A stretch of DNA of 64,000 nucleotides. Source: Balamuthia mandrillaris (Eukaryota). Made by a program: the position numbers and the translations under genes. Under the pieces are notes generated by a model that searched no databases, had not been told where the DNA came from, and was given only the letters and a program-made list of their open reading frames with translations. Positions within the stretch are counted from its first letter, which is position 1. Each line of letters opens with the position of its first letter. Shown here in pieces: positions 3,129 through 45,794 of the stretch. The DNA lies in assembly GCA_031835245.2 (NCBI GenBank), contig JAVKOQ020000040.1, positions 62,001-126,000 on the forward strand, in the 5' to 3' direction.

Positions 3129-4854
3129 ACATGGTGGCCATGTCGGGATCAAACGTGGAGAAGACAATTTTACGATTGTCGTTATGGTTGTCAAAGACTA
3201 CTTTCAAAATGGCATCCGCGTATTCGTTCCTGTCCTCCCAATCGTCGGCGTCCCTCTCTCCAACCAAAGGAACGGGATACTTGACCTCTATATTCAAGCC
3301 GACCTCTTCCGGAACGTAGTCAAAGACTTCTTGTAGAGTTGGAACTCCCAAACCGACATCCTCGTCGACAGCGTTCTTCGCCGATTGTTGTTGACTCAGA
3401 CGGTCGATAAGAGGGACCAAAAGTTGGTCGGACTGACGAATGTGGTCCGAGAGGCGAGCAAAGATCTTGCCTGTGTCGTGCTCATCCAAAAAGTCCAACC
3501 GGAGAGAGCGGATCTGTTGGAGAGTCAGTTTGTTTATCGCGATTTCGAGGGGCTGTGTGCTGTTGTCTTGAATGAGAGAATCGCTGAAGTGCAGCAAAGA
3601 AAAAATGAGTTCAAGCAGAGGAAGAAAGAAACAACGCCAGCAGAAAGATAACAAAAGAATGTCGAAAGAGAGAGAGAGAGAGGAGAAAATGAAAAAAAAA
3701 AGAAACAAGAAGGAAGAAAGCAGAAACGTACTTGGACATACGCAGTTCTTTTTTGAGCAAAGCATCCGACTTTTTAACGCTAATGGCGGTGGTGTAGTTG
3801 TGGTAGATGATCGGTATCCTATCCTTAGTCAATTGCACATCAAACTCGACCCAATGGGCACCCTATGGAAGCATACAAGGCAAGTTATAACAAAAAAAAA
3901 ACAAACGATACAAACAAAAGAGAGTCGAACCATCTCAGCAGCTTTGATGAAAGAGTAAATGGTGTTTTCGGTGACGGTGGGATTGGAGTGAGGCGAGGAA
4001 TGAGCGCCGGCTCCGCGATGGCCGATGTTCAGGGCAGGGGAGTCCCAGTAGGCTCCCCAAACTTTGGAGAGGTTGTTTATGGGGTGGAAGAACGGGCGAA
4101 TGATGAGATAGTTGAGATAAAACTCTCCGATGGGAACCATGTTGTCGTTCATCACAGGGCTGATGATGGCTCCACAAGAGAGGTTGCGGTTACGGATCTA
4201 TAAGATAGAAAGAAGAAAGCAAGAAAGATAACGACAGACAACAGTCAGAACTAAAAGAGAAACCAGGAGGGTCAAAACGCGAAAAACTTGAAACCTGCGA
4301 AGGAACAATGACAGCACTGCCCAACCGAGCGGTGCGTGGAGCGCTCTCTTCGCCCTCGCTCTCGCTACCGCTGCTCTCATCGGTGCAAGGAAAGACCTCC
4401 ACCAGAATGGCGGACTTGCGTCCTCCATGTTCGAGGGAGGCCATGCGCCCCCAAAATATGTTTTGACTGCCTGGCTTCCATTCCCAACCATCACTAGGCT
4501 TAAAGAAAGAGTAAGAGAACAGAGAACAGAGACAAACGAAAGAGCAGATGCGAACCTGTTTGATGCCTTGGATGGAGACTGTCGGAATGGAGGAGTCTTG
4601 GTCTTTGTTCTTCAACTCTAGCACGGTAAGGTTGAGAGGAATAGGTTGAGGTGTTTTGCGTTTGACTTGTGTGTCGTTGTTGGCGTGGTATTGAATGGAA
4701 GATATTTTAAGCTTGTAAGGCTGTGGCTCCAGCATTGCTACTGTTGGTCTCTGTCGATACCCGATGCGAAGTCTTCAAGAGAAGAAAGTGAGACTGACGA
4801 AGAAGGAGGAGAAGTAGAGATACAAGTGACAGAGCAAGCGAATGAAAACCAGGG

Positions 4855-4887
<33 letters not shown>

Positions 4888-5589
4888 GAGAATAAGGACA
4901 AGCGAGAAGAGAGAAGATATCCAACAACAGAAGAAAAGAACGAACCTCATTTCATAGTTTTTGAAGAGCCATCCCTCATCCACGTAGTCCACTTGTTTCA
5001 CTTCATGGTCCTGCAGCCGTCCAAACTCGCCGTCATCCACCGAGATCTCCGCCATCAAAGAGCCATTGCTCCCTTCTCCTGTTGTTCCAAGCGGAGAGGA
5101 AGACGAAGCAGCACTCGTCTCTGCTTTCTTTACTTTCTGCTTCGAGTCGCTGAGAGTGCTGACGCCTCTTCGGGGCTCTCCATCCTTTGGCAAGAACGGG
5201 ACAAACCTTCGGTTCTCTCCTTTGATGCTCTCCCAGCGCTTGATGATCATGGCGTCGGCCTCGTGCTTGGAGGGCGCCACGATGAGGTACTTGTACTCCA
5301 CCTCCTCGTCCAGCGGAAGAGAGACGGAGGTGCTCCACTCCGGATAAGCGCTCTCCGAGGTGTTCAACAGGATGCATCTATAGGCGAAAATGACAAGTTT
5401 GACGGCAAAGAAGAGAGAGAGGTGAGAAAGAGAGAGAGAGGTGAAAGAGAGAAACGAAAACAAAATAAAAAAAGACAACGCAGGTTACCTATCGGGCTGC
5501 CAAGAGCCCAATGCTTCATTGGAACCTATCAAAGCGACCAGCTCTCGCTTCTTCGTGTTAGCTCTAACTATAAATTTTACGCTTATCAT
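2697..5589 (-). CDS. Glycerophosphocholine phosphodiesterase GPCPD1/GDE1-like (N-terminal CBM20 + GDPD domain), multi-exon
   Basis: CBM20: [41 protein letters not shown] motifs: [66 protein letters not shown]. Confidence 0.92.
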
Positions 5590-5769
5590 CTTTTTTTCGA
5601 AACAATAAAGGGTCCTTTCGTTCCTCTCAAGCGGCGGGAGAGGAGGGTCGACTCCGAGTTGCGGTTCCTCGCCGCCTGAAAAAAAAAAAAAAGAAACCCT
5701 TCCTTAACTTTGCAATTAAGAAGGAGTTTTCCCGTGATCTTATATTCTTTTTGCTTACCTTAAGATCAT

Positions 5770-6030
5770 TATCAAGCGTTACACAACTTACCGGTTCGAC
5801 TCATGCCTCTGCTGTTTGTTTTTTTTTGTTTAAGTTTAACAAAACGTCCCTTGGTTCGACTCCAACCTACCACGAAATTAGTTTTTTAATTCATCAAAAC
5901 AATGATTAGGCGTTACAAACGTTGCCGGTTCGACTCGTGCCTCTGCTGTTTTGTTTGGTAATGTTGCACCAGATGGCCTTTGGTTCGACTCCAACCTACA
6001 ACGAAACTTGTTTGTAACTCATCAAAAAAA
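5770..6030 (+). repeat. Two ~130-bp tandem units, each carrying two B-box/T-arm motifs
   Basis: GGTTCGACTC at 5793, 5853, 5927 and 5982. The flanks are shared between units (gcgttaca, tgcctctgctgttt, ccaacctac.acgaaa, tcatcaaaa). Confidence 0.85.
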
Positions 6031-6105
6031 ATTAATGGGGTTCCACAAGCAGTGGTGCTTCGGTGAAAGAGTGCTTTGATGGTGAACTGGTACTTCGTTG
6101 TTTAT

Positions 6106-6303
6106 GGACTCATAATCCCCAGGCCCTTGGTTCGAATCCAAGTCCGGGTAATCTTGCAGCGTTCCTGGTATCGGGACACAAGAAGCCTTGTTCGGCTGCG
6201 GAGAGAGAGTGGTATGTTCTCCTGTTCTCTCCCTCTCCAACGAGGCTTTGCGTGACGGAACTACAATCGCATTTACGCCCGGATAGCTCAGTGGTAGAGC
6301 GGG
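6106..6303 (+). tRNA. Circularly permuted tRNA-Met(CAU): 3' half 6106-6150 (nt 29-73) precedes 5' half 6277-6303 (nt 1-28)
   Basis: Joined sequence is GCCCGGA TA GCTC AGTGGTA GAGC G GG|GGA CT CAT AA TCCCC AGGCC CTTGG TTCGAAT CCAAG TCCGGGT A. All four stems pair, and U8, A14, G15-C48, G18G19, G26-A44, U33, A37, TTC-A58 and A73 are canonical. Confidence 0.85.
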
Positions 6304-6339
6304 AGAAAACACTCAGTTGCCCATGCCACTCTCTCTTTG

Positions 6340-6346
6340 TTTTTTT
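6340..6346 (+). terminator. Pol III-type oligo-dT terminator of the permuted tRNA unit
   Basis: T7 run 36 nt after the 5' half. There is no run of 4 or more T between 6037 and 6339. Confidence 0.6.
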
Positions 6347-6465
6347 AATTTTTCATTTTTTTGTGTACAGTTAGTTATGCCACTGAGTCATTACAGAACC
6401 GGTTCTGTAATGACTGTTATAGCGTGTGAGTAGGTTTTATAATCTCTTTAGTATCGTTTCCATTT

Positions 6466-7519
6466 TCAGAACAAGTTGAAGGGCAGAAGCCGATGGGAGC
6501 CGGAGCTCTCGCCCCTGCTCACTTGGAAGGTGTGGATTTTCAAGCCAGCGGTGGCGAACGCGTCGCTTCCGGACTCGAAAAGCTCCAACAACTTTTCCAC
6601 TGCTGTGGAGCCTTGAACGTGAAAACAGGTCAGAAAAAAAACAACACGAAAGAAATGGCAAAAACGCACCTGAAACGTTTTCGTCGTCGTTGTCAACGAT
6701 CCAAAAGTCAAAGTAAACGGAGCCATCAGCAGCCACCAAAAGCTGTCCCAACAAAACTCGGTTCGAAAAATCTCCGAGGTCGCTCTCTTCCAAAACCTTC
6801 ACCAGGGCGGTCACAATACCCTCTCTCTGCTCCTCCAAGCCGCTCAGAGAGGCCGATATGTAAACCGTTCCTTTCGACTGGGTCTGGACGAAACGAGCAA
6901 GAGGATCCCCGATCACTTCTTCCATCAGGAAATATTTGAAGTCGTTCATAGCTTCGCTCTTTCCTTTGAACAAATCCGTAAAGGTGAGAGAGAGAGCCTC
7001 CGAAACAGCCGTTTTCATAGGGAAGGAAAGCCCTTCAGCGCTTATAGAGGCGTCAGTGACTCTTGTGTTGAGCCGCTGCAGAGCGAACTCCGTCGTCTCT
7101 CCGCTCGCTCGGTTGCGTTGCGCACTCACCAAAAGCTCAAAAGTGACGTCCATGAAAAAAGTGGCTTCATAGACTTGATCTACAATCGTCAGCCTCACTG
7201 CCAAGGAAAGGTAGTCCAAAGAGAAAGCGGTTTTGAAGTGGCCGTTCGAAGTGACCGTCTCCAGGGTGGCGTCCCAGGAAATGGTTCCTTCGTGGAAGAG
7301 GTTCGTGTCAAAGTCGACGGAAAGGTCCACGCCGAAAAGTTCGAGAGTGAGAGAGAAGGGCTCTTCAAGTGAGGAGTAGAACACGTTTTGTAGATTATCA
7401 GCGATGAGTCTCTGTTTAGCCGCAATGTCGCGTCCTATGTCCGCGCGGGCGCTGGCACTCGATGACAGCCATACGACAGCCAGAAGGAGGAGCAGTAGAA
7501 AGAAGCGAGAGGTGTACAT
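6466..7519 (-). CDS. Secreted protein of unknown function (one short intron ~6612-6669)
   Basis: Signal peptide MYTSRFFLLLLLLAVVWLSSSASA, a long ORF, and a GT..AG intron joining to the final exon GSTAVEKLLELF...PFNLF*. The C-terminal part (GSVYFDFWIVD) loosely resembles SEA-like domains. Confidence 0.7.
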
Positions 7520-8038
7520 GTTTGCGGCGGATTTGCTTGCTTTTCGTTTGTGATGGTTTTTATTTTCGTCTCTTGTCTCACAGCCATGCTTTTTATTATC
7601 GTTTCTAGCCCACACCAAGCTTTAACGGGGCAGCTCAATCATTCCAACGAGAGCGCGGTGCAATCTATTTCTCCACTCGTGCCCCCCTTTCAAAGACTGC
7701 CCGAAACCCAATCGTTACAGCACATTTCTAACCCAATATATGGTCACGTGAATTACTAAATTAAAGGAATCTCACGGTGATTCGTCATGTTATTTCTGGC
7801 CAATCAGAACAATGATAGAAATGAAGGGACACGCTATAGCGGTCGGCTAAAGAGCACCCCATTTGCTTCTTGTTCTCTTCTATTTGTTTGTCCAGCAACA
7901 AATAACGTGTAAAATGGGAGTGAAGAACGAGAACAAAAGAACACAAAACGATTTTTTTTAAAAAAAGAATAAAATTTAATAAATAAAAAAAAAGCGGTTC
8001 AAAAAAAAAATAAAAGAAAGAAAAGTTTTTCTGTGGTT

Positions 8039-11000
8039 TTACAGAGAGAGCAGCAAATCATCATCCTCGTCCTCATCCTCTTTTCTTCGCGCCGCTGTGG
8101 AAACGGTTGTCGTGGAGGTTGCAGTCCTCCCTCCTCCTCTCGCCACATTCTTCTTTCCTGCTCCCTCCTCCTCCTCATCCGACAGCAAGTCATCGCTGAG
8201 GTTGCCGTCTTCCTCCGTCGTGTAAAACGGAATGTCGCTCCTTCTTGCTTCTCTTCTGCCGTTTCCTTCTCCACCGCCCTCATCATCCTGATAAGGCTCC
8301 ATCTCCATTCCATCGGCGTACTCCTCCAAGCCCATGGGGAAGTAGCTCCTCCGCACCATCTTCCTCTTCTTGTAGGCAAACCACACGGCCCATCCAACCA
8401 CGCCCAAAACGCTCAAGCACAACAGCACAATGCCCAGCACCTTCACAAACGCAATAAAGCCGCTCAAGCCTCCTTTTCCTCCGTTCTTTCCGTTGTCCTT
8501 GTCGTTAAAGTGTTCGCAGTTCTCGCCAGAGTAGCCGGGAGTGCAACGATCGCAGGAGGGAGAGCCATCCCAATTGGGCGGGCAGACGCAACGGTTGTGA
8601 ACGTCACAAAAACCGCCGTTCATGCAAGGAGGGCTGCAAACGCCGCTCTCGTGGCAGCGCGGCCAGTCGGTTCGCCCTGGGGCGCACTGTTGGCAGCGAT
8701 CGCCTGCGTAGAGTGAGCTGCATTGGCAATGGACGCGGCCATCTCCCGTAGTGTTCACACAAGCGCCCAAGGGAGTGCACACATTCTTTCCTGGCACGTT
8801 TGGTTGATAGTCCTCCTCCAAACATCCACAACTGTTAATGAGGCATGGTTGTCCTTCTCCTGAATGATCTCTCACGCATTGTAAAGGGGAAGAAGTGGAG
8901 ATGTTGTGATAACCAGCAGCACAACGTTGACAACGATCGCCGTCGTAGCCAATGTCGCAGAGGCAACGATCGGTGCGGAACATGCCGTTGGCGCCGCAGC
9001 CGAAAGGAGCGCTGCGGTACTTGTGAAGAGAGGGAGGGGTGAAGAGGAGCGGAGCGCTCTCAAAGAAGAGAGACTCGGACTTGAGGTCGAGTGAGTAAAC
9101 CTTGTTCTCTTTGAGCTCGTTGTGATCAAAGAGAAGTACGTAGGTGGGACGAGAGTTGCGAAGCCAGACTTGTTTGGGGAAGATCTCCTTTCTATCTTGT
9201 CTCTTGTTGTTTGAGTCTCTCTCTTTCTCGAGGAGGTAGAAAGCTGAACGAATGTGTTCAATGTCGTTCTGGCCGATGGTCAAGTTGACAAACTTTCCGT
9301 TTTCTTTGGCTTGAAGAGGAGGCAATACAGCACTGCCGCTACCAATTGTTTCCTCCTTTGGCATTCTTTGCACCGAGAGAAGAACGCTGAACTCGTCGTC
9401 GGGGTTTAAGTCTCTGGTAGCAAGAGGCAGGACCTCGCTGACGTACGCTCCCTGAGGGTCAACCAGCACTTGCAGAGAGAAGGCAAAGCGATAGCACCGC
9501 TCGTCCTTTGTGGAGGAGAGCTCGTCGAGGATGTGGCCTCGCTGTTTAATATGAAGCATGTGCTTGGCTCCTGGGTTGACATAGATGTCATTGAGAACGA
9601 GTTGATGAGTGACCATACCGTCGAGGAGCGCTTGCCTGCCCATCACCAAGTGAGAGAGGGTGCTGCGTTTGCCCCAGGAGGTATCCAGGGAGGCCTCCAT
9701 CCAAAAGTTGTTGATGAGGGGATCGAAGGAAAGAGTAGCGATGACGGTCATTCGCTGGTCCTGACCTTCAGCGGCCGAGGGCAGAGTGATTTCGATCGGA
9801 TAGTCAAACAAGGGAGGTTCCTTCTTCTTTGTCGAATCATTTGGTTTGGGGGTGGAGGTGAACTGGTCCATCTGTTGTTGAGTTACGTGAGAGTCAAAGA
9901 CAGAGTAGTGGTAGGGGAAAGCCGCATTGGGCACGTTGCTGTTCTCCTTATCCACGGTGATCTTGCTCGTTGGCAGAGACGAGGCGAGAGAGGGGCATGT
10001 CAGGCTCTTCTCGCTCAGTGCATAGGGCTCCATGATGAGGTTCATAGCAAAGACGGGACAGGTTTCCACCCAAAACTCTTGCGTGTAGATGAACTGTATC
10101 TCAAACTCTGTGCCTCTCTGTCCGTTATCTTGCGACGGCCAGAAAAAGTCGTCTTCACCAAAGTCAGGATGAAGGTCAAAGATGGCAAAGGAGGTAGTCT
10201 CTCCGGCGTTGCTGTTGGCAAAACTTTGCAAGGGCTCCACCAAAGCTCCGGTTCGGCTGTTTAGAACCTTAATGTTGACTTCGAGATGAGCAAAGTCAGC
10301 CGTTCCCGTGAAAATGCTCAACAGGCTGCGCTGCGTGATGTTGATGCGCAGGATGTCGCCAGCACCGTCAATGTGGGAGGCCAAAAAGTTGTGAGCCCAG
10401 AGATGAACCCTACCACTGTCAGTGATAGGTCCACCATAAGGGAAACTGCCGCCGGCAATGGTGGTGAGATCTGTGGGGACACGCGCCAAGTCGAAGCAAC
10501 GAGTCGTGCCTTCACGCTTGGATGCCTTCTCTACAAGTACAGTAAGAGAGTAGGGCAAACAACCTTCATTGTCGTCTTTCTTCTTTCGTGAGGAAGATGA
10601 AGAGGTTATCCAAGAGATAAGGTCATCATCATCGCTGGTACGATACAGCTCGAGAGTGTAGTTGCCTCGTCGTACGATGTTGTTGACGGTGTTCAAGTTT
10701 CGGAAGCTGCGTCCATAAGTGGTTTCTCTGTCACGATGACCAGGTGCAATGATTGGCTTTAGGGTCCACTCCAAGTCGTTAAGAAGGAAGTGGAAGCCAG
10801 CCTCCGCGTAGATGACCGCCTCCTCCATCAATTCCAGACGGAACGTGACCACTGGTTTGCCAACGTCGCCTCCCAAGGGCTGCCAAGCAACATCGCGCGA
10901 GTAAAAGAAGGATCCCGTTTGGTTGCTCAGCTTCACGTCAAATTCGTTCTTATTTTGCTGTTGAGCGGCCGCGCATTCAGAAGGAGAGATCTTCAAGCGA

Positions 11001-14000
11001 TGGAAAGCCTCTGCGGTGTGTGCCAGGGGCTCTACCGCCAGCTCCGTGTTGACAAAGAGGTTAAAGTCGAGGTTGGAGTCGGTAGCCAGCGTAAGACGAT
11101 AGTTCACATGCGGCTCCAACAGGTGAGCCAAATGGTCAGAGCCGAGCACTTCGGGCACTGCCTCTCCTTGCTTGGCAAGGCTAAGCGAAACCGCGCCATC
11201 GTTGTTGCCGTTACTACCAACACTTTCTCCTTCTGCTAACTGAGTGGACAAACGAAGGATGGACTGTTCTTCCACGCTAAAGCGAACGTCGCGACTGGTT
11301 ATGGCGGGAGTGAACATGAGATACTCGCGTTGTAAGTGCACATTGCCGCCGTGATGCAGGTAAGGCAGAGAGTTGAGGTTGGTGACAGGGAAAGGAGGAT
11401 GGCGAGAGTCGGCATGACGACCCAAGCTCGGCACAACGGACATGAGGAAGGTGAAGTAAGAGCAGCCAATGGTCAGAGGGTGGGCCTCCTCAACCGGCTG
11501 GTAGATCTCCAGCTGGTAGGAACCCTGCAGGAGACCCGCACGATGCAGCACGTGACGGTTGAAGCGATTGCTGCCATAGTAGATGGCACCGGTCTCCACG
11601 TGCGTCAGGTTCAGCGCCAAATCGCCCACTGCAAAGTCGTAACCAAGCTCCATGTAGAGATCCACAGTTTGACTGATGGTAAATGTATAAGTCATATGCG
11701 GAGAACCTTCGCCCTGGTCATCGCCGTGTTTCTGTTGGAAGTAGAGCAACTCGGACTTCGGAGCAACGGCACCGGCGTCACTGTTGCTAAAGTTCAACGA
11801 GGAGAGGTCCTCTCGCAGCAAGTTGCTGCTGTCATAGTGGAAATGGAGTGGGATGTGAGCAGGCATAGCGGGAGGCCAGTGATCCTTCTGTCCAGGACAT
11901 CCCGAGCGATCAATCATGGAGATGGGCTCAACAGAGAACTGCATGTTGAAGACGGGGCAGGAGGAGATCCTCTCAGGATACCAATTGAAAAAGGCCAAGT
12001 CCAAAACGTACTTCTTGCCAGCTTTCAACTCGCCCACAAGGGTCTCTTCCGTGTTCCATGAGAGGGAACTGGAAGCTATAGCCTCTTTGCTCTCTCCATC
12101 TTCCTTGATTCGATAGAGCATAAGGTCAATGTCCACATCATGAGGCTCCGTGTACACGCGGAAGAGAGAGTCCACGAGAGGATCCATGGTGATGCTGCGA
12201 GTTGCCAGGATGCTATCACCGTGAATAAACTCCTCAGGAATGGCAAAGGAATCAGAGTGGTAGGTCACCGAGGAGCTGCTTTGAAGGAAGCGAAGGGAGT
12301 TGAGCGTAACGGGGATTTCTTCCTTGATGCATTCTGCGGGATTGTTGTTCTTGACATGTTCGTCCTCCACACCTGAAACATCGACGACGGGCTCCAAGTG
12401 AAGATCGAACATGAAACGAGCGCAAGGGGGCATGTGGAAGGACGAGGCACGTGAGGAAGGAGTAATCATAGTGAAGAAGTTAAATGGCTGTCGGAAGATC
12501 CTGAGACGATAATGCCCTGGAGCGAGGACCTCATCTAACATCTTCCTGTTAAAATCATCCACTCCCGAAATAATCTGACTGCTGTGCATCACGTTTTCTG
12601 GCTCCAACTCCAATCGAAGGTCGGTGATGAAGAAGTTGCTCTCAAGGTTCACCCTCAGCCTCATCGACTGCTCGATGTGAATAGGATAAGTGGCTACGGT
12701 CTCCGTTTTACTTGTGTGATAAACTTCAGGAACGGTCAGTTCAAAGCTCTCACGAAGAGGATTGGGTAGCAGGGGCAGACTCTCCGAGAGAGCGAAACAC
12801 TCATCCTCATCGGTGGGAATGTTGTCGGTAGGTTCGATACCCAACTCCACAGAAGCCAAGGGACAAGCGCGTTCATCGTAGACTTGATCCGTGATCCAAC
12901 GGAAGGCGTAGGAGCCAGCAGAGAGCTGCGTCCATAACACGCCATCCTCCTTCACCTGCGTGCGAGTATAGCGGTTCTCCTTCTTGTTGACTTGATAGAG
13001 TTCCAACTTGGAGATGGCAGCAGGGGCGGAGATAGGAGTGATTGACACTTTGAAGAGGCTGCTTGTAGCGTTCAAGTCGAAATGGACCATGTGAGTAGAG
13101 GTGGAGGCGAAGATGTCTTGCACGTGGAGGGAACCACGTTGATCCAGGAAGTTGGGTTGGTTAAGGGAGTAAGGGAACTTGGCGGCAGTGGCGCAGGCGC
13201 TTGCCTCGTCCTCGTCCACAAAGTCCACCACAATGGAAAAGTCGTAGAGAGAGCATTCCAAGGAGTAGGGAGGACGGGTGAGTTGCAGAGTGAGGTTGTA
13301 GTTTCCGACAGGTAACAGTTCATCCAACACGTTTCTATTGTAAAGATTTTTGCCTGTACAGATTTTGCAACGAGAGAGGAGGTAAGTGAAAGAACAGAGA
13401 AACAAACAAGAGAAATATAACGCACCAACGATACGCAAACGATCATGAACATCACTGGTCAACATGATACTAAGGTGACTCGCAGGGAAGTCATAAGTGA
13501 CCTCGGTGTGAATGCGAGTGACCAGGCCAGCAGGTGGTTGATCAATAGTCAGTGGCACCACCCAAACCGAAAGTGGCTTGTGATGCTGCAACGAGGGCTT
13601 AGGATAGTCGATGTCAATCAAAGCAAGGGGTGCATTGGTTGCGGTGAATCCTCTATTGTACTCAAAGCTGTTTCCATCACGAATGAGAATTTCCCTCAAG
13701 GGAGGGAAGGTAGAGGCGGTGGTATGAGCTAGAGAGCGACATTGATCCGGGGAGGATTCACTGTCTAACGTTTTGGCGGGAATAATGGAGAGGTCTAAGT
13801 TGATGGTTTGGCACTGAAGACCCCCTCCAAAGTAGTACATGAAGCGAAGGGCGTAGTAATCGTCGCCAATGGTGGGCTGCAAGGTTTGATACATAGTTTC
13901 CTAGTTTTTGTTTTGTTTTAGAGATACAAGAAAGCAACAGGAAAAGAGAAAGGAAAGGAGAGAAGGGGAACCGGAAAGATGCTAACAGAAAAAGTTATAG

Positions 14001-17000
14001 GAAAGGAAAGCAGAGAAAATAACGCCTACCTCAAGATTGATGGAATAAGAGCCATCATCAATAGACTCAGTCTTTCCGTTGCTCATCTTAACCAAAGAAA
14101 TATCAGCATCCACCCAACTAGAGTCCATTACAACACGGAACACGCTCGTCTGGTTCAACTGGAACTTGATCTCTTCCGATCCTCTCTCCAGGTCAATAAA
14201 GTAATGACCGTTCAATCGAACCTCACCATCATAACCAAGATAGGCCATCGTGTTGAGGGAGGCAGGCAACAAAGGTTCCTTGCAGCGTGTGCTCTCCTTC
14301 AATGCGGTCTTCACTGGCACACATTCTGCTTTGTCTGCTCCTTCTGGCTTGCTCCATTCATAGCCAGCAGCACAAGCGGAGCAATATTTCTCTCCGACGG
14401 TGATGTAGCCGGTGAAGCAAAGACAAGTGGGATAGCCTTCCCAATCGCGACAAAAGCCGTGCTCATTGCAAAAGTTGGGAGTGCATGGTATGTTGTCTAT
14501 GCAGTTCACACCAGAGCCGTGATAGCCCTCCTCGCAGACGCAAGCTCCATCCACGCACTTGGAGTTCTCTCCACAATGACCGCCGCAATCATCGTCGGGA
14601 GAAAGGAAGGTGTACATTCGTCCTGTTTGCTGAGATCCCTCATAGGAAACACCGCCGTCGGCCTTAAACTCAGGAGAGAGATCCAGAATGAGCTCGTACT
14701 CAGTGCCCGCAGTCAAGCTGTTGGCAGCCCAAGTGGCCACCAGCACGGTATGTCTCCCTTGAAGGCCGCTCTCATCGGAAAACTCTAGTCTGGTAGGAAG
14801 GATTTCGTTCCAATCGGACTCATGCGGACGTTCCACACTGGGAGTGCGGAAGTAAAGTACCTTTGTGGCGCTGTCTCCTGTCCATTGAGTGAGCTGCTGG
14901 TCGTTGGCTGGCTCCACAACAGGATGAGAAAAGTGAACGCGCAGAGCAAATGGTTTGGTTGGATCGTAGACGTCATCACCGGGGGGGTCCACACGAATTA
15001 CTTTGGGGGCTTCCGGACGCCCATCAGCGATTAAGGAAAGAGAGAAGCGGTAGCAATAGGAGCTATGGTGCTCTCCCAATTGGTCCATTTTACGATCGAC
15101 ATACTCGTAGATGTCCAAAAAGTAGGTACCTGGCTCAAGCTCGGCGGCCAGAAGGTGATGCATGTCCACACGAAGGGAGCTTCCGTCGTCGAACGTGGGG
15201 GTGCTGTGGTGTATAGGGAAGAAGTCCTCCTCATCATTGCGAATTTGCAACATAAAGTCACTGATCAAAAAGTCGTAACCAATGTCAACCTCGATGACGC
15301 TACTCTCCTCCACGATGAGGCGCACGGTATATATAAAGGCGCCGGTGGAGGCATCATAGTTGTCATCAATTGTGGCCTGGCTGAACATGTAGTTGCCGTG
15401 GCGCTCTACATACTCTCCATTGAGACGGAACTCATCGGGCGGAAGACCGGGCAGAACCAACGGGCAGAGCAACTCGTCGTGAACTTGGGACACCGTCTTA
15501 ATCTCTAAGCCCAATTGGTAGTAGTTGCACTCTACCTGGTGGTTGATGCGGAAGTATTGAATGTTGAGGACGTAGGGCGAACTTTTTGGCTCGAGGCGGA
15601 ACAATCGGCTCTCCATCTCGCCAAAGTCGATGGAGAAGTCGATGGAGGACTCAGCGTCTTCCGATTCCATGATGTAAAAGTCCAAGTCGTTGCCGGAGAT
15701 CAAAGAGTGGAAGTAAATTCTCATGAAGACGTCTTCCGTAGGTACATTGAATGAGATGGGCTCTCTGGTAGTAATGTCGGCCGTAGGAGGAACAAGGAAG
15801 TGACTTCCAAAGAAGCGAATCGTTCCATCGTCATGCTGAAATGAAAGAAGGTTAAAACAAGGAATCTTACAAGTTTTTTTTAAAAAAAGGCAAACAAACA
15901 AACAAACAAACAAACAAACAAACAAACAAACAAACAAACAAACAAACAAACAAACAAACAAACAAACAAACAAACAAACAAACAAACAAATCAAAAAAAA
16001 AACTAAAGCGTACCTGAGGACCCCCAAAACCAACGCTACCACCTTCAGCTTCATACAAGTTACGTGGCAATGGCTCCGAAAGATCACACCCTCGATCGGG
16101 CACCGACTCCGCTGACTCCAGCACGTACCTGAGCTGGATGCGACTGCACTTGATAGGATCGGGATAGGGCAGGGGAGCGTTCTCCGTGTGACCAACGTTG
16201 GCAGAGTCAGTGATGCGGAGGGTGTAATTGCCGGCGCGAAGGCGCTCGCTAAGGAAGGCGTGGTTGTGGCCCAATTTTCCGTCGTAGAAAGAGCGAACGG
16301 GAACGTCGTGACCTGGTTCTCTTACCTCGCCGATCAGCGTCAGTTGCATGCCACTGCTAAGGAAGTCGAATCGCAAGTCAGCCAGGAAGACCTGCTGCTC
16401 TGCCAAGACAAAGCTGCTCTTCCACTCGAAGGGCTTCGTAAGCTCATCACCTCCTCTCGGTAAGGTGATGAGGACAGTCTTATTGGAGTTGAGTTTGCTG
16501 CCGTCGATAAAGTTCTCAGCAGGAAGAGAGCGTGCGCAGAGGTTGGAGGTAGTGGCAGTGGGGGGCAACAGGCGAGAGGGAGCGATGGCAAACTCCAGGG
16601 CAAACGTGGGGCAAGTGCTGGAGTGAGGGAGCTGGGCGCCCAAAGCAGGGTAATACTTCATCTGCAAGGAATAGTCGCCGCTGCTCAACAGGAAGGACAT
16701 GGCCTCTCCAAAGTAGCCTGATCGTGAAGCCAGCAGAGAATTACCTCGGAAGAGCTGGAAGTCTACATCGATGTGAGCATCGGGAGGAATGTAGAACCGC
16801 ATGACAGAGTTCTCCGTCACCGTCCAGCTCATGGTTTCCAGGCGAGTGACTACATCGGCCAGAACGCGGCGGTTGAAATGAGTGCTGTAGTCAGACAATG
16901 GTGAAAGATGGGAGATGGTGTCCAATGTGGAGGGCAAGGGGGCAGCATGGCATCCTTCGATGGTTTGGTCGGGTCGCTTGGGGTCGTACTCCTTGTCTTG

Positions 17001-17645
17001 CTCCACGATGGCGATGGTGAGGCTAAATTGCACGCAGGTTGCCTCCTCAGGATCGCTCAGCTCAGAGGTCTCGTAGATGACCAGAGTGTATCGCAGTGGG
17101 TTGTTGTTGGCATCAACAGCGGGAAGAAGCATTGTCGGCAAGTCGTTGTGGTTGTACCGGGTTTGTCCCATTGCCAATTCGAGAGTGTTATTGTTCGTCG
17201 CACTAGTTTCGCCGGTAGAAGAAAGCAACAGAAGGTTAAGATTGTTGACCAAGAAGTCGTAGCCTATAAAAGCGCGGAAGAAGACCGGCTTGGAGATGGT
17301 GAAGGGGATCTCATAGCGAAGCGGTTTCTCACCCTGAGAGAAGTTGAAAAGACCGGTAGTCTGGAAACGTCCGTTAGGTAAAGAGGCAGGTATCAGCGTC
17401 TTTGGGGGCATTAGGGTGGATGCTTCGGAGCAAGTTGGTGCTTTCTCATCGCTAGGGGCAATGCTCAGCTCCAGTTCAAAAGTCTTTGTTGTTGGTCAAA
17501 GTGAAAAATGTGAGATAGGAAAACTAAGAAAAAAACAAAATGATTGAATAGAGATAACACAATATTCAGAGATAAAATTTAAAAAATTGCTTCAAAATTG
17601 AAATGTCAGAGCGATACTGAAAGACATCATGTGGTGCGGTAAAGT

Positions 17646-17686
<41 letters not shown>

Positions 17687-17993
17687 ATACTTCGCAGCCG
17701 TCGAGAGCTTGGTCAGGTTCAAAATAACGAACAAGAAGTTCGTATTCGAAACCTTTCTTCATCTTCCAAACTAATTCTTCCTCTGCATTAAACTGCAAAC
17801 CCATGTCGACGAGTACACCGTCCTCGAAGAAAAGAAAATCAATGTCAATTTGATGAGGTTCAGAATATAACCTAAAGTCGGAGTCTACGGTTGGTGTGAA
17901 CGTCATGCTCTGAGATTTCATAAAGGCACTGCACATCATTGAAAAAGGTGAGTGAGAGTGGGAGGGGTAGGAGAGAGGGAGAGAGAGAGAGAG

Positions 17994-18027
<34 letters not shown>

Positions 18028-20160
18028 GGCAAATGAGAGGCAAAGATTAAAACAAGTACCCATCTAGTGAAGGAATCAAAAAATCGCCTTGCAAATGCAA
18101 CTCATTAGAAGCGTTGATGCTCGCCCACGTGTTCAGCGCGAATGGCAAGTCGTAATCCCAACAGTGAGGATCGTTAACCAATTTACTATTTGCTTTCAGG
18201 TGCAACTATGTATAACAAAGAAAAGCGTCGTTAAACCTTAAATAAAAATAAATAATAAAACTGGAGATGGAAGTTACCTCGAAAGTGAATGGCAAACATG
18301 TGGTGAGCTCGCTTTCTATGCCTTCCGGCGTGTTGCCCAAAGTGGGTAATTGCAGGCTGAGTATGTAAGAACCCTCCTCAAGTTCAGAGGTTGACAACAC
18401 GACCACCTCGCCTTCGTGTCGGCCATTAAGCGCCTGCGTAAACAGATATGAGAAAATAAAAAACAAGCAACAAGCAACAAGCAACAAGCAACAAGCAACA
18501 AAACGAGAGGGAGGAGTGCAATAACAGTACCACATCAGGATGATCTTTCTTGTGGAGAGAAAGACTCAAGTCTCCCAACAAAAAGTCGATGCCAACAGCC
18601 ACGTGGAGGGTAGACATCTCCGTCACTTCCAATGTTAACTCAACTAGTTTCTGCGGCGTGTCATACTTGCCATTGAAGGGATAGTAGTAAGTGTCCATCC
18701 CCAAACTGATGTCTCCGCTGTCTGCCTCCGAGATAGGATTGGGCAGTGTCGGCAACTTCGACTGGCAATCGTGGTGTTGAGGCTTTCTGGAAGAAGTAGG
18801 GGCGAGGGCGATGTGAAGGTCTGTTGGGTCGCAGAACACCTCCTCCGTGATGTAGGAATTGGGGAACTCGTAGATTCGGATGATGTAGTCCCCAGCAGCG
18901 AGGGTGGAGAAGAGAGCCTCAGGTTTGAACCAAAGGGTTGATGACATGAGTGGAGTATCACCTGTATTATTTTGTTAGAGCGAACATAAAAATACAACAG
19001 ACAAAAAGAAACAGCAAACAGGAATGGGATTAACATACTGCCAGCCTTGTGTACAGCAACGTCCAAGTCTTGGTCATATTCATCCAAGAAAATACGGATG
19101 AAACTCGGTTCATCAAGGTGGAACTGCAACAAACAAGAGGGGGATGAGTTAACACGGAAGCAGGAGATAAAAATAAGGAATAAGCATACTGAAATATCAT
19201 GAGAGTCTTCCTCTATGAAAACACGTTCATGATAATTAAGAAAACCACGATGCATGAAACCAGGATTGTTCAGATTGGTGGGAAGCCTTGGAGCTGTATT
19301 CATGAGGGAGCAATAAGATACTAGCACAAGAGAAGAAAATTGGGGGGGGGGGGGGAAAGATATTGCCAACCTTCACACGTAAGTAAGTCTTCATCGTGCT
19401 CCACAGCAAGAACATTAAGGTTGAATGTAAATGGAATACACGAAAGATCCAAGGAGGTATTCCTTTGGTCACTTCGTTCAAATATGTGGATGGAATAGTT
19501 GCCAGAAGTGAGGACCCAATTCAGCTCCTTCTCGTTGTAACGAACGCCGCTTGCCTCCACACAATCCTTAGAGAAAGGATCCAGGTACCGAGTTAAGCAA
19601 TCCAAGTTCTCAATTTGTGTGTGATTGAAGTAAAGCAACGCGCTATACGTAGATAATGCAACAACATTGTCAGGTGTGAGAGAGAAGAAAGGATGGAAGT
19701 GAAAGAGTAAAGCAAAAAGGAAAAGTACACTTACCCAACAGAACCTCCTGTCAAAAAGTCAAAGCCAAGGGCAGCTTCAACCCGCCAAAATCCAGAAGTG
19801 TAGGAAGGCAAAGTGAAATTGGTGGAAGCGAGGATACGAACGCCTTTGTCCGAAGAGGAGGGCTTCATTGCAAACGTCTCCGATGAAGTGAAGTTCCAAG
19901 CGCCGACTGGCATGGGCGACGGGAATTTCGGCAACACCTCCTGCCCTGGGCATCTGTAGGCATTAACTCTTGTCTGTGCTGTTGTCTGTTGAAGAGTGGG
20001 TCATCAGGTCCAAAGAAACAAAAAGATTAATGGAGAGAAAAAAAAAGGGTTAGGATGAGGCTACGTACCTCAGGCACAATGGAAAGTTCCAAGTTCACAG
20101 TCTCGCACTCGATAGACTCCGTTTGGAAAAAGTCTGAAAACAAAGGTCAGGCCAGAAAAC

Positions 20161-20196
<36 letters not shown>

Positions 20197-20805
20197 GCGA
20201 ATGAAACGTACTGAAGTAAAGAAAAGTGAAGGTATAAGAACCGCTGTCTAATGTAATGGCAATTACTTCCTCTTCCCAAAACTTTAACCCAGCATTCTAT
20301 GGAACGATATAAACATATTCGTTAGCGCAAATAACTCACAGAAGAGAAAAGAGAGCGAGAATAAGCAGAGAGAGAAAGAGAGAAGAAACAGGAGAAAGAG
20401 CAAACGAACCACAATAGCTTTAGGCGGCTCGCCCTCCACGATTTGATAGAGGTAGGCGTCAATGTCCCAGCGACGGTGCGGCGCCACATAAAGCCGCACC
20501 ACGCTCCTCTGGGTGAGGTTGAAGGCCATGTCGTGAGCTCCCTCGGTGAAGTTGGTGTAATACTCTCCGTGCAGGTGGAAGCCGTTCCTGCTGTTGCTCT
20601 CGTCCAGGTAGGAGAGGCTGTTGAGGGAGCGGGGCAGGCTCTCCGGCTTGTTGTCCAGGTGGCAGACGTTATGCCGAAAGGGTTGAGGGCCAGAGCTGCC
20701 ACTGAGGTCGGATTGTGTGAGGGGCTCCTGTTGGGCATAGGCAGCCGCAACTAAGAGGATGAGCCCGCATGCCAAAAACGTGGCGAGCACGCCCTGACGT
20801 GACAT
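8039..20805 (-). CDS. Very large type I membrane receptor-like protein: ~10 repeated beta-rich modules, 2 Ig-like domains, EGF/laminin-EGF repeats, one TM, acidic tail
   Basis: Signal peptide MSRQGVLATFLACGLILLVAAAYA. Collinear minus-strand ORFs (including a 1951-aa terminal one) are linked by GT-AG introns. Recurring LPxSLNxxxxL..H/F..S.FR.Y..DID motif, EGF cysteine patterns (CLCDIGYDGDRCQRCAAGY), TM LGIVLLCLSVLGVVGWAVWFAY followed by KKRK. Confidence 0.88.
15890..15989. repeat. (CAAA)n microsatellite in an intron
   Basis: About 24 perfect CAAA units between exons of the receptor gene. Confidence 0.95.
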
Positions 20806-20847
20806 GTGTGTCTTTGTGGCCTTTGCGGGGAAAGGTTTATATTTTAT

Positions 20848-26934: not shown

Positions 26935-27982
26935 TTAGTTTGCCTTCACCTGGGGTATGGCGGTGCGAGCGGCAGCAATCCTGGAAGGCACCTCCGCCAC
27001 AGGATAGTGGTCCTTCCCAGCATCGATGGCGATGTTGGCTCCGCTCTCATACTGACCATCATGCTGCCCGGAGAAGAGCTCCACCACAAACCCTCCGATC
27101 TCGCTGCCTTTCCCCGCTCTTCCTGAAGGATTGAAGGCTGCCGCCACTTCCTCCACACGGTCCACTCCAAGGATCTGTTTGCCTGCTTTGTCCGCCATCT
27201 CGCTCTCAAAGACGAAGGGATTGATGCTGAACACTGTTGTTTTTTTGCCACCGGTGTGAGAACAAACCATTGATAGACAATAAAGACTGGAGGAGGCTTC
27301 ATAAGAGGAGTACCTTTGATGTTGCGGTCTTTGAACTCAGCAGCAGCCACGCGAGTGATGGCATCCACTGCCGTTTTGGAGGAGCTGTACACCGCTGAAC
27401 CTGGGGAGGAGAGCACGGACATCACGCTGGAAATGTTGATGATGAGACCTCCCCCATTCTTGGCCAAGAGAGGGACAGCGAAGAAGAAGCTGCGAATGAT
27501 GCTCTTCACATTGACATCATACACAATGTCAAAGTGTTTGGCGGCGTCCTGCCAGAAAGGATGGAAGAGCAGCCAAGGCCGTTACCGGCATGTCAGCATT
27601 GGAATTATACATCAACACAAGCAGAGAGAAAGGGAGAGAGAGAGAGAGAGGGAGAGAGAGAAGAACAAACGGCATGATCCAGAGGGACCCATTCCCCAGT
27701 GCCAGCATTGTTGATCAGCAGATGGAGAGCACCATACTTTGCCACCGTGGTGTCAAACAGGCGTTTGAGGTCCTCCTCCTTGGTGACATCGGTCTGCACA
27801 AAGGTGGCTTCCAAGCCTTGCTTCCTCAGTTCCTCCTCCAGAGCCTGGCCTTTGTCCTGGCGCCGTCCCGCCAGCACCACTTTGAACCCTGCCTTGGCCA
27901 GCTGGATGGACGCTCCATGCCCGATCCCAGTGGTCGCTCCCGTCACGATGGCTACTTTGTTATCGACAGTGGTGGTGCTCAT
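26935..27982 (-). CDS. Classical short-chain dehydrogenase/reductase, copy 1 (3 exons)
   Basis: VAIVTGATTGIG (TGxxxGxG), NNAG, NISS, YSSSK (YxxxK). Confidence 0.93.
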
Positions 27983-28480
27983 GGTAATGAATGAGTTTTG
28001 TGTAAATTTGTTGCTTGTTTTTTGTTTTGAGTTGGTGAGTTGAGTACCAAGAAGAAGGGGCTGGAAGCTGACTATTTATATGTGTTCTGCTTCCTCCAAT
28101 CATTCGGGGATAACTCCATCCTCCGTGGATATTGATAGCGTCAACTAACTATTTCTCCATGTTCCTTGTCCGTCTGAACCGGTTGAACGTACAGGGCTCC
28201 AAAGGCCTATTGGTGGCTTTTTCTCCTTGGGAATAAATCCACCGAATGTTGTCAGGTGAGATCGGAGAAAATAAAATTCTCCATCCACGTCGTCGCGAGA
28301 TATTTCTGTGGCTTGAGCACCGGCAGCAGACGTCCTTTCGCCGCTCTTTCCATCCATCTCTGGACGTTTCGGCCATTCCAGGCCGCCTCCCTGTTTCTTC
28401 TCTTCGGCCAGCAACAGCCAAACAGCAATAGGAAACCAAATTCAGAGGAAACAGGACGAACCAGGTCTGGCCTGCCGTCT

Positions 28481-44131: not shown

Positions 44132-44740
44132 GGGAAAAAAAAAAAGAACTCTCCCGACACGATTCAGCCAACAGCACCGACGACATCAACCAACAACAAC
44201 AACATTTGTTTTAAAGTTTTTTTTATTCGTTCTTCTTCTTTTGTTTTTATTTCTTCGTTCTTTTTTTTTTGGTTGTTCTGCTGAAGAAGCACAACGACAA
44301 ATAAAAAATATCAGGTAAATATTGTCCAAAAGCAGCTCATCCGCCCCTCACCCTTCCTTCCCCCTCCACTTCTCCGGTTATTTCCAAGAGTGAGACACAG
44401 GACGACATGGAAGGTCCTATGTTATTTCCCGAGATGACGTCATTCGGGTAATTCGATCAACCAATCGGGAGCCAGAAACCGGAAAATGTGCCCAATACAA
44501 TAGCGCACCGTTTCGGCGCCAAACGAAAGATTGTTTGGTCAACCGACACCGTAGGGAGAGTTGACGCTATCTCAACCTCCACGGAGGATGGGCTAAACCC
44601 CGAATGTCGAGAATGGTAAAAATATAGGGGATTTGAAGGGCACTTATAAAAAGGCCACCACTTTGGATTTGTTGGTCACGACACAACAAAACAAACTTCC
44701 AGAAGAAGCACATCAATAGCAAGCACACCGAAAAAATACC

Positions 44741-45794
44741 ATGAGCACCACCACTGTTGATAACAAAGTGGCCATCGTGACGGGGGCGACCACTGGGATC
44801 GGGCATGGAGCGTCCATCCAGCTGGCCAAGGCAGGGTTCAAAGTGGTGCTGGCGGGACGGCGCCAGGACAAAGGCCAGGCTCTGGAGGAGGAACTGAGGA
44901 AGCAAGGCTTGGAAGCTACCTTTGTGCAGACCGATGTCACCAAGGAGGAGGACCTCAAACGCCTGTTTGACACCACGGTGGCAAAGTATGGTGCTCTCCA
45001 TCTGCTGATCAACAATGCTGGCACTGGGGAATGGGTCCCTCTCGACCATGCCGTTTGTTCTTTTCTCTCTCACCTTTTGTTGTTCCTTTTTTATTATTTG
45101 AAGTGGACTCACCTCTTCCTCTCCTCCCTCCTCGTTTTGTGTTTTGCTGCATTCCTTTCTGGCAGGACGCCGCCAAACACTTTGACATTGTGTATGATGT
45201 CAATGTGAAGAGCATCATTCGCAGCTTCTTCTTCGCTGTCCCTCTCTTGGCCAAGAATGGGGGAGGTCTCATCATCAACATTTCCAGCGTGATGTCCGTG
45301 CTCTCCTCCCCAGGTTCAGCGGTGTACAGCTCCTCCAAAACGGCAGTGGATGCCATCACTCGCGTGGCTGCTGCTGAGTTCAAAGACCGCAACATCAAAG
45401 GTATTCTTGTGATAAAGCCTCCTGTTGTATTCTGTCTTTGTTGTGATAATGACAGTGTTCTCACACCAATGCCAAAAAAAAAAAAAAAACAACAGTGTTC
45501 AGCATCAACCCCTTCGCCTTTGAGAGCGAGCTGACGGACAAAGCAAGCAAACAGATCTTTGGAGAAGAGCGTGTGGAGGAATTGGCGGCAGCCTTCAATC
45601 CTTCAGGAAGAGCGGGGAAAGGCAGCGAGATCGGAGGGTTTGTGGTGGAGCTCTTCTCCGGGCAGCATGATGGTCAGTATGAGAGCGGAGCCAACATCGC
45701 CATCGATGCTGGGAAGGACCACTATCCTGTGGCGGAGGTGCCTTCCAGGATTGCTGCCGCTCGCACCGCCACACCTCAGGTGAAGAGCAACTGA
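44741..45794 (+). CDS. Classical short-chain dehydrogenase/reductase, copy 2 (3 exons)
   Basis: Protein is identical to copy 1 through exons 1-2, with a few substitutions in exon 3. Confidence 0.93.

What the first reader, a model, noticed from the sequence alone, without database searches (positions are those of the whole stretch)
6106..6303. Circularly permuted tRNA-Met(CAU) gene with a non-canonical 28/29 junction
Seen: a tRNA 3' half (6106-6150: GGA-CT-CAT-AA-TCCCC-AGGCC-CTTGG-TTCGAAT-CCAAG-TCCGGGT-A) lies 126 nt upstream of a tRNA 5' half (6277-6303: GCCCGGA-TA-GCTC-AGTGGTA-GAGC-G-GG). Neither has its partner in normal order. They complement exactly: acceptor GCCCGGA/TCCGGGT, and anticodon stem GG|GGA/TCCCC with no gap or overlap. 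Cross-half tertiary pairs (G15-C48, G26-A44) are kept, which argues for selection. Known: permuted tRNA genes that mature through a circular intermediate are described in Cyanidioschyzon, prasinophytes, a chlorarachniophyte nucleomorph and Thermofilum, with BHB-type junctions mostly at 37/38, in the D loop or in the T arm. I know of no amoebozoan example or 28/29 permutation, but could not search. Inference: this lineage may have its own permuted-tRNA maturation route. I found no strict BHB, only a relaxed helix (TGTTT 6099-6103 with AAACA 6307-6311), so the processing may differ from standard TSEN ruler splicing at 37/38.
Basis: partly seen in the sequence, partly recalled or inferred. Interest (0 to 1): 0.95.

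Follow-up and report, generated by a model that had tools for sequence, protein, structure and literature searches.

The report
Back-to-front tRNA gene in an amoeba
The amoeba Balamuthia mandrillaris carries a transfer RNA gene written back half first, apparently in two copies and split at a point not found in the published cases consulted; it is likely transcribed as one piece and predicted to be cut and rejoined by a route the standard enzyme of this lineage should not manage.

Summary
Confirmed. A tRNA 3' half (6106-6150) lies 126 nt ahead of its 5' half (6277-6303). They rejoin into a canonical 72-nt tRNA with anticodon CAU, and only the 28/29 register gives a full anticodon stem. The window is Balamuthia mandrillaris. 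An independent DNA run holds the same layout and a second copy: its halves appear identical, its spacer does not align and its trailer is diverged. No identical contiguous gene shows in that run. Eight RNA reads (four fragments) lie within the unit and are of precursor type, but their strand is uncalibrated and none spans the junction, so maturation is not shown. Two features differ from published permuted genes. The leader holds an A-box-like word 49 nt ahead of the B box, which would restore a normal Pol III promoter. The junction has no bulge-helix-bulge motif, in a lineage whose endonuclease is thought to cut only at 37/38. The tRNA body is 62/73 identical to E. coli tRNA-Phe. Best reading: a working permuted gene matured through a circle (0.5). 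Main rival: a transcribed relic (0.25). New variant of a known kind.

The parts
6106..6150 (+). tRNA 3' half, positions 29-73 (anticodon CAT at 6111-6113, B box 6129-6139, discriminator A at 6150)
   Evidence: identical in both copies of run X5, shared unitig 6101-6151 at depth 80
6277..6303 (+). tRNA 5' half, positions 1-28 (own A box 6284-6294)
   Evidence: shared between the two X5 copies from 6275 to about 6312 (inferred from contig ends)
6151..6276 (+). 126-nt intervening spacer that bridges the acceptor ends
   Evidence: 3 substitutions in run X5, and replaced by an unalignable spacer of about 130 nt in the second copy
6182..6249 (+). long hairpin inside the spacer (predicted)
   Evidence: z -3.5 for 6180-6250, a region chosen after seeing the fold, and z -2.4 for the whole spacer; the X5 change at 6189 turns a U-G pair into C-G
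6073..6105 (+). leader resembling a decayed 5' half; G6073 lies 7 nt ahead of an A-box-like word at 6080-6090, which starts 49 nt before the B box
   Evidence: Rfam tRNA hit 6073-6150, 21.5 bits, below the gathering score of 29; likeness to the 5' half is weak (282 of 5000 shuffles as good)
6304..6339 (+). trailer; 6307-6321 is predicted to pair with leader 6089-6103
   Evidence: conserved with 5 differences in the second copy; weak likeness to a decayed 3' half (61 of 1721 background windows as good)
6340..6346 (+). T7 run, likely Pol III terminator; no run of 4 or more T between 6040 and 6337
5748..6039 (+). tandem duplicate holding four extra B-box words (5793, 5853, 5927, 5982), with T runs after most of them; role unexplained
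   Evidence: five of the 7 GGTTCGANTC words in both strands of the window lie in 5793-6129

Best explanation
This is a circularly permuted nuclear tRNA(CAU) gene, likely functional, that is predicted to be transcribed by Pol III as one RNA of about 280 nt and would be matured by cutting at 28/29, ligation into a circle and reopening at the acceptor stem. Steps: (1) Shown: the layout leader - 3' half - spacer - 5' half - trailer - T7, with no internal T run. (2) Inferred: TFIIIC binds the leader's A-box-like word (6080) and the 3' half's B box (6129) in normal order and spacing, so no upstream TATA is needed. (3) Predicted by folding: the spacer folds on itself, the cloverleaf forms, and leader and trailer pair into an interrupted 12-bp helix that leaves the anticodon stem at the nick through 3-nt and 2-nt linkers. 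(4) Inferred by analogy with algal genes: a tRNA-splicing endonuclease with relaxed specificity cuts after G28 and before G29, and the tRNA ligase closes a 198-nt circle. (5) Inferred: RNase P and RNase Z remove the spacer and CCA is added. The product lacks initiator marks and is most likely an elongator tRNA-Met; an Ile2-type role after import into mitochondria is the alternative identity.
For: Unique perfect register and single matching partner. The layout is present in an independent sample (X5 record 3). A second copy appears to keep both halves unchanged while its trailer differs at 5 places and its spacer does not align: 0 of 72 against 5 of 43, Fisher p 0.006. No identical contiguous gene appears in X5: there is no 6303-to-6106 joint and the 3'-half unitig is unbroken from 6101 to 6151. 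All 8 RNA reads laid fall in 6087-6322 and all four fragments point the same way. A decode that matches every count has one fragment of the second copy carrying both halves in permuted order. The circular 6106-6303 RNA folds into the full cloverleaf without constraints. The A-to-B spacing fits the 32-57 bp reported for Dictyostelium tRNA genes (PMC5391098).
Against: 0 of 8 RNA reads show the junction or a mature end. The first mate lies on +, which in most stranded libraries would mean antisense RNA, and the strand is uncalibrated. No BHB at any 72-nt register, and a review states that the four-subunit endonuclease, which Dictyostelium has, cuts only at 37/38 (PMC10485636). In the full-length transcript a rival fold (trailer 6322-6336 with spacer 6202-6216) is about 17 kcal/mol lower than the cloverleaf fold; the gap is only 3 kcal/mol for 6087-6322. 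Against the Dictyostelium A-box consensus the leader word has 1 mismatch, which 21% of equal spans reach by chance. The same-locus comparison alone is not significant (0 of 56 against 3 of 126, p 0.55). One of the two X5 copies must differ at 6100, inside the proposed helix. The genome has 427-560 annotated tRNA genes, so redundancy is likely. No permuted relative was found outside the species.
Confidence: 0.5

Rival explanations
1. Transcribed or silent relic: a tandem pair of tRNA genes lost its outer halves, and the inner halves still look complementary because they descend from one gene. The two copies match through recent duplication or gene conversion. No tRNA is made.
For: Leader and trailer weakly resemble the lost outer halves. 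More T-arm-like remnants lie upstream. No BHB, no junction read, and a large tRNA gene set. A review notes that odd insertions in one of many synonymous eukaryotic tRNA genes are usually taken as pseudogenes (PMC4090602).
Against: Decay would have to stop at exactly complementary bases on both sides, with no gap or overlap. The 72 kept bases are perfect while the outer halves are barely recognisable. The halves are unchanged between copies whose flanks and spacer have diverged (p 0.006). No intact parent gene with this 3' half shows in X5.
Confidence: 0.25
2. Two-piece (nicked) tRNA: RNase P and RNase Z remove the spacer and the leader and trailer are trimmed, but G28 and G29 are never ligated; the halves stay together by base pairing.
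For: There is no splicing motif. The nick lies inside a G-C-rich stem, and the halves share the acceptor stem and two anticodon-stem pairs.
Against: Exact trimming at both ends without an endonuclease motif is equally unexplained. The algal permuted tRNAs that were tested are ligated through a circle (PMC3978253).
Confidence: 0.1
3. The cloverleaf serves only as a processing handle or tRNA mimic: RNase P and Z cut out the spacer hairpin as the functional small RNA, or the uncut RNA acts as a decoy.
For: The spacer is longer than the 1-74 nt tabulated for permuted genes, folds better than shuffles and shows one pair-improving change.
Against: The spacer is the part that is not conserved between the copies, while the anticodon loop is. 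Rfam finds no family in the spacer.
Confidence: 0.1
4. Split (trans-spliced) tRNA: each half is transcribed separately and the two pair through their flanks.
For: Leader and trailer can pair.
Against: No T run between the halves. RNA fragments cross the spacer from one half into the other. No B box follows the 5' half.
Confidence: 0.03
5. Assembly artefact.
For: None found.
Against: A contig of another sample runs unbroken from 6122 to 6304 at depth 40.
Confidence: 0.02

Closest known systems
Circularly permuted nuclear tRNA genes of Cyanidioschyzon merolae (Soma 2007, 2013; reviewed in PMC3978253)
   Same: 3' half ahead of 5' half in one unit, spacer bridging the acceptor ends, T run behind, no encoded CCA, junctions outside 37/38.
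   Different: Junction 28/29 is not among the 34 tabulated genes (15/16, 20/21, 37/38, 50/51, 59/60). The spacer is 126 nt against 1-74. No BHB here. C. merolae relies on an upstream TATA and lacks recognisable TFC1/TFC3, whereas this gene has an A-box-like word ahead of its B box. C. merolae has 43 tRNA genes, B. mandrillaris 427-560.
Permuted tRNA genes of Ostreococcus, Micromonas, the Bigelowiella nucleomorph, Auxenochlorella and Thermofilum pendens
   Same: Same gene order; permuted CAU tRNAs occur there as initiator tRNA-Met. O. lucimarinus has a 'no H' intron at 27/28, one base from this junction.
   Different: Those junctions are at 37/38, 15/16 or 59/60 (Auxenochlorella positions are in a figure not seen). 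This one is non-initiator and lies in Amoebozoa.
Archaeal split and intron-containing tRNA genes broken in the anticodon stem (29/30 in Caldivirga, 30/31 in Nanoarchaeum and Staphylothermus; PMC4090602)
   Same: Break in the 5' strand of the anticodon stem with paired flanks.
   Different: Those use BHB-type motifs and archaeal endonucleases, and split halves have separate transcripts.
Enterobacterial tRNA-Phe(GAA) and bacterial-type tRNA(CAU) genes
   Same: 62 of 73 positions identical to E. coli tRNA-Phe; up to 60 identities with contiguous tRNA(CAT) genes from metagenomes.
   Different: Anticodon loop and variable loop are of the CAU type. No prokaryote genome matched the 3'-half motif with its T stem, so a donor is not identified and the likeness may be partly convergence.

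Membership tests
Circularly permuted tRNA gene | 3' half upstream of the 5' half on one strand; halves rejoin into a canonical cloverleaf | tested here: met
Circularly permuted tRNA gene | One transcription unit: no terminator between the halves, T run behind | tested here: met
   RNA fragments cross the spacer
Circularly permuted tRNA gene | Sense precursor RNA exists | tested here: inconclusive
   8 reads, four fragments, one direction, strand uncalibrated
Circularly permuted tRNA gene | BHB or relaxed BHB (hBH, HBh') at the junction | tested here: not met
   no central helix at 28/29 or any other 72-nt register; the nearest motif is one base off. 'No H' junctions are accepted in T. pendens, so this does not exclude membership
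Circularly permuted tRNA gene | Circular intermediate and ligated, CCA-ended, charged tRNA | tested here: inconclusive
   0 of 8 reads in 150-nt RNA-seq libraries read at 3-5% depth; such libraries seldom keep mature tRNA
Circularly permuted tRNA gene | Upstream TATA-type promoter in place of A/B boxes | tested here: not met
   only AATTAA at 6030 in 6001-6075; an A-box-like word at 6080 instead
Circularly permuted tRNA gene | Only gene for its anticodon (no contiguous substitute) | not testable with these tools
   no genome held; no identical contiguous copy in X5, but non-identical tRNA-Met genes are untested
Split (trans-spliced) tRNA gene | Separate promoter and terminator for each half | tested here: not met
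Initiator tRNA-Met | A1-U72, three G-C pairs at 29-31/39-41, A54 (marks recalled; A54 also) | tested here: not met
   G1-U72, A31-U39, T54
Elongator tRNA-Met | CAU anticodon, A73, U54, charged with methionine | tested here: inconclusive
   sequence marks met; charging not testable
Bacterial-type tRNA-Ile2 (lysidine) | C4-G69 and C29-G41 identity pairs, lysidine at 34 (PMC9976931) | tested here: inconclusive
   C4-G69 present, position 29-41 is G-C not C-G; modification not testable

The most novel reading that the evidence does not exclude
Balamuthia has a small family of working permuted tRNA genes broken inside the anticodon stem. They are transcribed from an ordinary A/B-box promoter whose A box is supplied by the vestige of the lost 5' half, and they are matured without a BHB by an endonuclease activity not expected in Amorphea. 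This member is a bacterial-type tRNA(CAU) that may serve the mitochondrion, which encodes only 13-18 tRNAs.
Probability: 0.25. Interest if true: 0.92.

Novelty: new variant of a known kind. Interest (0 to 1): 0.72.

Why it matters
Published permuted tRNA genes come from algae and one archaeon, and are explained by two preconditions: an upstream TATA promoter and an endonuclease that reads local BHB structure (PMC3978253). A working gene here would break both. It lies in Amoebozoa, where the four-subunit endonuclease is thought to cut only at 37/38 and where tRNA annotation is assumed to be reliable (PMC10485636). It would show how a permuted gene can keep TFIIIC-dependent transcription, would preserve a trace of the tandem-duplication origin model, and would mean that standard tRNA scans miss genes in amoebozoan genomes.

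Tried and rejected
No whole genome is held, so other tRNA-Met genes, other permuted halves and the TSEN/RtcB genes of this species were not examined. X21 gave 0 reads, which is no test. Only one lay of reads was obtained, so the library strand and further strains remain open.

Pattern scans for the 3' half with its acceptor end found 0 stretches in viral contigs and 0 in metagenomes. With the T stem they found 0 in prokaryote genomes and 0 in viral contigs. Looser anticodon-arm patterns gave 14 viral and 42 metagenome loci. Of these 56, 53 scored 7/7 acceptor pairs in normal order; L058 is contiguous by eye, L057 is cut by its contig end, and L049 is a lone 3' half with no 5' half within 300 nt. 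None is permuted. Phage hit H36 is a tandem tRNA cluster, not a permuted gene.

ARAGORN over all junction registers was too lax to rank them, so pair counting replaced it. Likeness of leader and trailer to lost halves did not reach significance in global alignments (282 and 2053 of 5000 shuffles). The four upstream B boxes have no A box with fewer than 2 mismatches 30-70 nt ahead. Rfam found nothing above a gathering score in 4000-9000. The supplement of PMC10471605 held none of six tRNA-processing terms. Misassembly, split-gene and initiator readings were rejected for the reasons given under rivals and membership.

Full report
Observation. Joined in a script, 6277-6303 and 6106-6150 give a 72-nt tRNA-Met(CAT) with all four stems intact; the raw window has 0 ARAGORN genes. 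Of 18 registers, only 28/29 gives a full D stem and a 5/5 anticodon stem, and both strands of the window hold just one 5' half that can pair with this 3' half. Two outside checks show that the halves belong to one tRNA. They hit adjoining parts of a single E. coli tRNA-Phe gene (62 of 73 identical). Positions 22-48 across the junction also occur letter for letter in a contiguous tRNA(CAT) gene (L004, L040).

Host. A window protein matches Balamuthia mandrillaris phenylalanine 4-monooxygenase at 100%. The locus lies between two minus-strand genes: a CBM20/GDPD gene and one with no Pfam family. No whole genome is held. The species has 427-560 annotated nuclear tRNA genes (PMC10471605, passages) and 13-18 mitochondrial ones (PMC10196457 and PMC4665321, passages).

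Conservation. DNA run X5, a different sample from the possible source, has a contig from 6122 to 6304 with 3 differences, all in the spacer. This excludes misassembly. A second contig of 187 nt matches 6122-6151, then runs unlike the window and rejoins at 6275. Each spacer has depth about 40 and the shared 3'-half unitig (6101-6151) depth 80. Downstream, two contigs leave the shared part: one continues into this locus, the other has 5 differences to 6346 and then diverges. I read this as two copies with identical halves, a paralogue or a strongly diverged allele; the pieces are not phased. Counting 0 of 72 changes in the halves against 5 of 43 in the trailer gives p 0.006. The same-locus comparison alone gives p 0.55. 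Gene conversion could mimic selection. There is no joint from 6303 to 6106 and the unitig is not broken at 6106, so this run shows no contiguous gene with an identical 3' half. A filter omits some records, and non-identical tRNA-Met genes are untested. Nothing from X5 was laid on 5720-6068.

RNA. Of three RNA runs, each read at 3-5%, X19 gave 2 reads, X20 6 and X21 0. All 8 lie in 6087-6322, none in the rest of 5720-6460, and all first mates are on +. One decode reproduces every bin and site count of X20 (my inference, not shown to be unique): a fragment from about 6087 to 6284, a short one at 6199-6286, and one of the second copy whose mates cover 6105-6151 and 6275-6322. All are of precursor type, and none ends like a mature or junction read. 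The strand is uncalibrated, and the tool's default reading would make these reads antisense. Read-through from the downstream gene is unlikely, because no read covers 6323-6460. Expression is therefore suggested, not shown.

Promoter. Soma's review notes that permuted genes have their A and B boxes inverted and are thought to rely on an upstream TATA (PMC3978253, parts 1-3 of 11 and passages). Here the leader has an A-box-like word at 6080, 7 nt after a G and 49 nt before the B box. That fits the Dictyostelium geometry (PMC5391098, passages). The word with its following TA occurs 4 times in 128 kb, two of them here and in the tRNA's own D arm (motif chosen after inspection). By the stricter Dictyostelium consensus it has 1 mismatch, a level that 21% of equal spans reach. 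Rfam aligns 6073-6150 as a sub-threshold tRNA with the leader as its 5' half. Shuffle tests of leader and trailer against the lost halves are weak. They fit, but do not prove, the tandem-duplication origin described in the review. The first T run after 6040 is at 6340.

Processing. As a circle, 6106-6303 folds into the cloverleaf with the spacer looped out. The spacer hairpin is stable (z -3.5). The stretch covered by reads folds with acceptor, D and T arms in place and a leader-trailer helix. The full-length RNA has a rival fold about 17 kcal/mol lower, so the model needs the spacer hairpin to form first during transcription (inference). No BHB exists at 28/29. Among 1600 register pairs, 46 have a 4-bp central helix and none of them yields 72 nt. 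The nearest pairs G22-C25 with 6100-6103: it places the 3' cut exactly at 6105/6106 and the 5' cut one base short. It is G-U-rich and may be chance. 'No H' motifs are known, including an intron at 27/28 in Ostreococcus lucimarinus (also PMC3728597 and PMC4090602, passages). A review says the four-subunit endonuclease, found in Dictyostelium, cuts only at 37/38 (PMC10485636, passages and section 6). The cutting step is thus both the weakest link and the most interesting one.

Identity. The product lacks initiator marks (marks partly recalled). Its body is bacterial-like, but no prokaryote genome matched the 3'-half motif, so no donor is named. C4-G69 is an Ile mark but the 29-41 pair is not (PMC9976931, passages). 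Elongator Met is the likelier identity; a mitochondrion-imported Ile2 or Met role remains open.

Novelty. The 34 tabulated permuted genes have junctions at 15/16, 20/21, 37/38, 50/51 or 59/60 and spacers of 1-74 nt. A 2026 review of photosynthetic lineages (PMC13578239, passages) and the Auxenochlorella paper (PMC12633428, passages; its Figure S1 was not seen and may bear on junction positions) add no amoebozoan case. Searches for 'permuted tRNA' (74 papers, 40 listed), with 'amoeba' (4 of 4 listed), with Amoebozoa (20 of 211 listed) and for Balamuthia with tRNA terms showed none in titles and abstract starts. The library lacks most subscription papers. Unchecked notes of this scan report permuted tRNA genes in other protists, three with anticodon-stem junctions and one of them at 28/29. 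They are leads only, but suggest the class may recur. No permuted relative appeared among 56 viral and metagenome loci with the same anticodon arm.

Verdict. The feature is real, conserved in another sample and apparently duplicated. It works like a permuted tRNA gene in layout. Membership stands on layout and single-unit structure, fails on the BHB and TATA features, and is open on maturation. Working gene matured through a circle 0.5; relic 0.25; nicked tRNA 0.1; processing handle 0.1; split gene or artefact 0.05. New variant of a known kind, interest 0.72.

Noticed in passing
window 5748-6039: Tandem duplicate (period 129-134 nt) with four B-box words. Two of them (5853, 5982) keep a T arm 90% like the tRNA's and are preceded by a hairpin with an apparent A-U to G-C pair swap between units. 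They could be extra TFIIIC sites, decayed 3' halves or small Pol III genes; no good A box lies ahead of them.
   Followed up: partly
run X5 record 1, matching window 6069-6099: The A-box-bearing leader piece recurs (1 difference in 31) on a 289-nt contig with other flanks at depth 9.9. Nineteen bases later comes the same TTTAT leader end followed by TCACTC, which could begin another permuted 3' half.
   Followed up: no
window 6202-6216 and 6322-6336: Spacer and trailer are complementary at 14 of 15 bases and form a fold that competes with the cloverleaf; the spacer segment also resembles leader 6057-6078 at 77%.
   Followed up: partly
window 6386-6415: Perfect 30-nt palindrome just behind the terminator; a contig of run X5 skips 6374-6415.
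   Followed up: no
window 6106-6150 and 6277-6303: The rejoined nuclear tRNA is 62/73 identical to E. coli tRNA-Phe although its anticodon is CAU; origin unresolved.
   Followed up: partly
window 26946-28075 (-) and 44567-45602 (+): Two near-identical short-chain dehydrogenase-like genes in opposite orientation about 17 kb apart (family name from the look of the translation, not searched).
   Followed up: no
window 8039-20847 (-): Several very long ORFs with cysteine-rich EGF-like repeats and a membrane-spanning end, probably one or more large surface proteins (by eye, not searched).
   Followed up: no
L049 401-445 (-): Lone tRNA(CAT) 3' half starting at position 29 in a metagenome contig, with no 5' half within 300 nt; probably an integration-site remnant.
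   Followed up: partly
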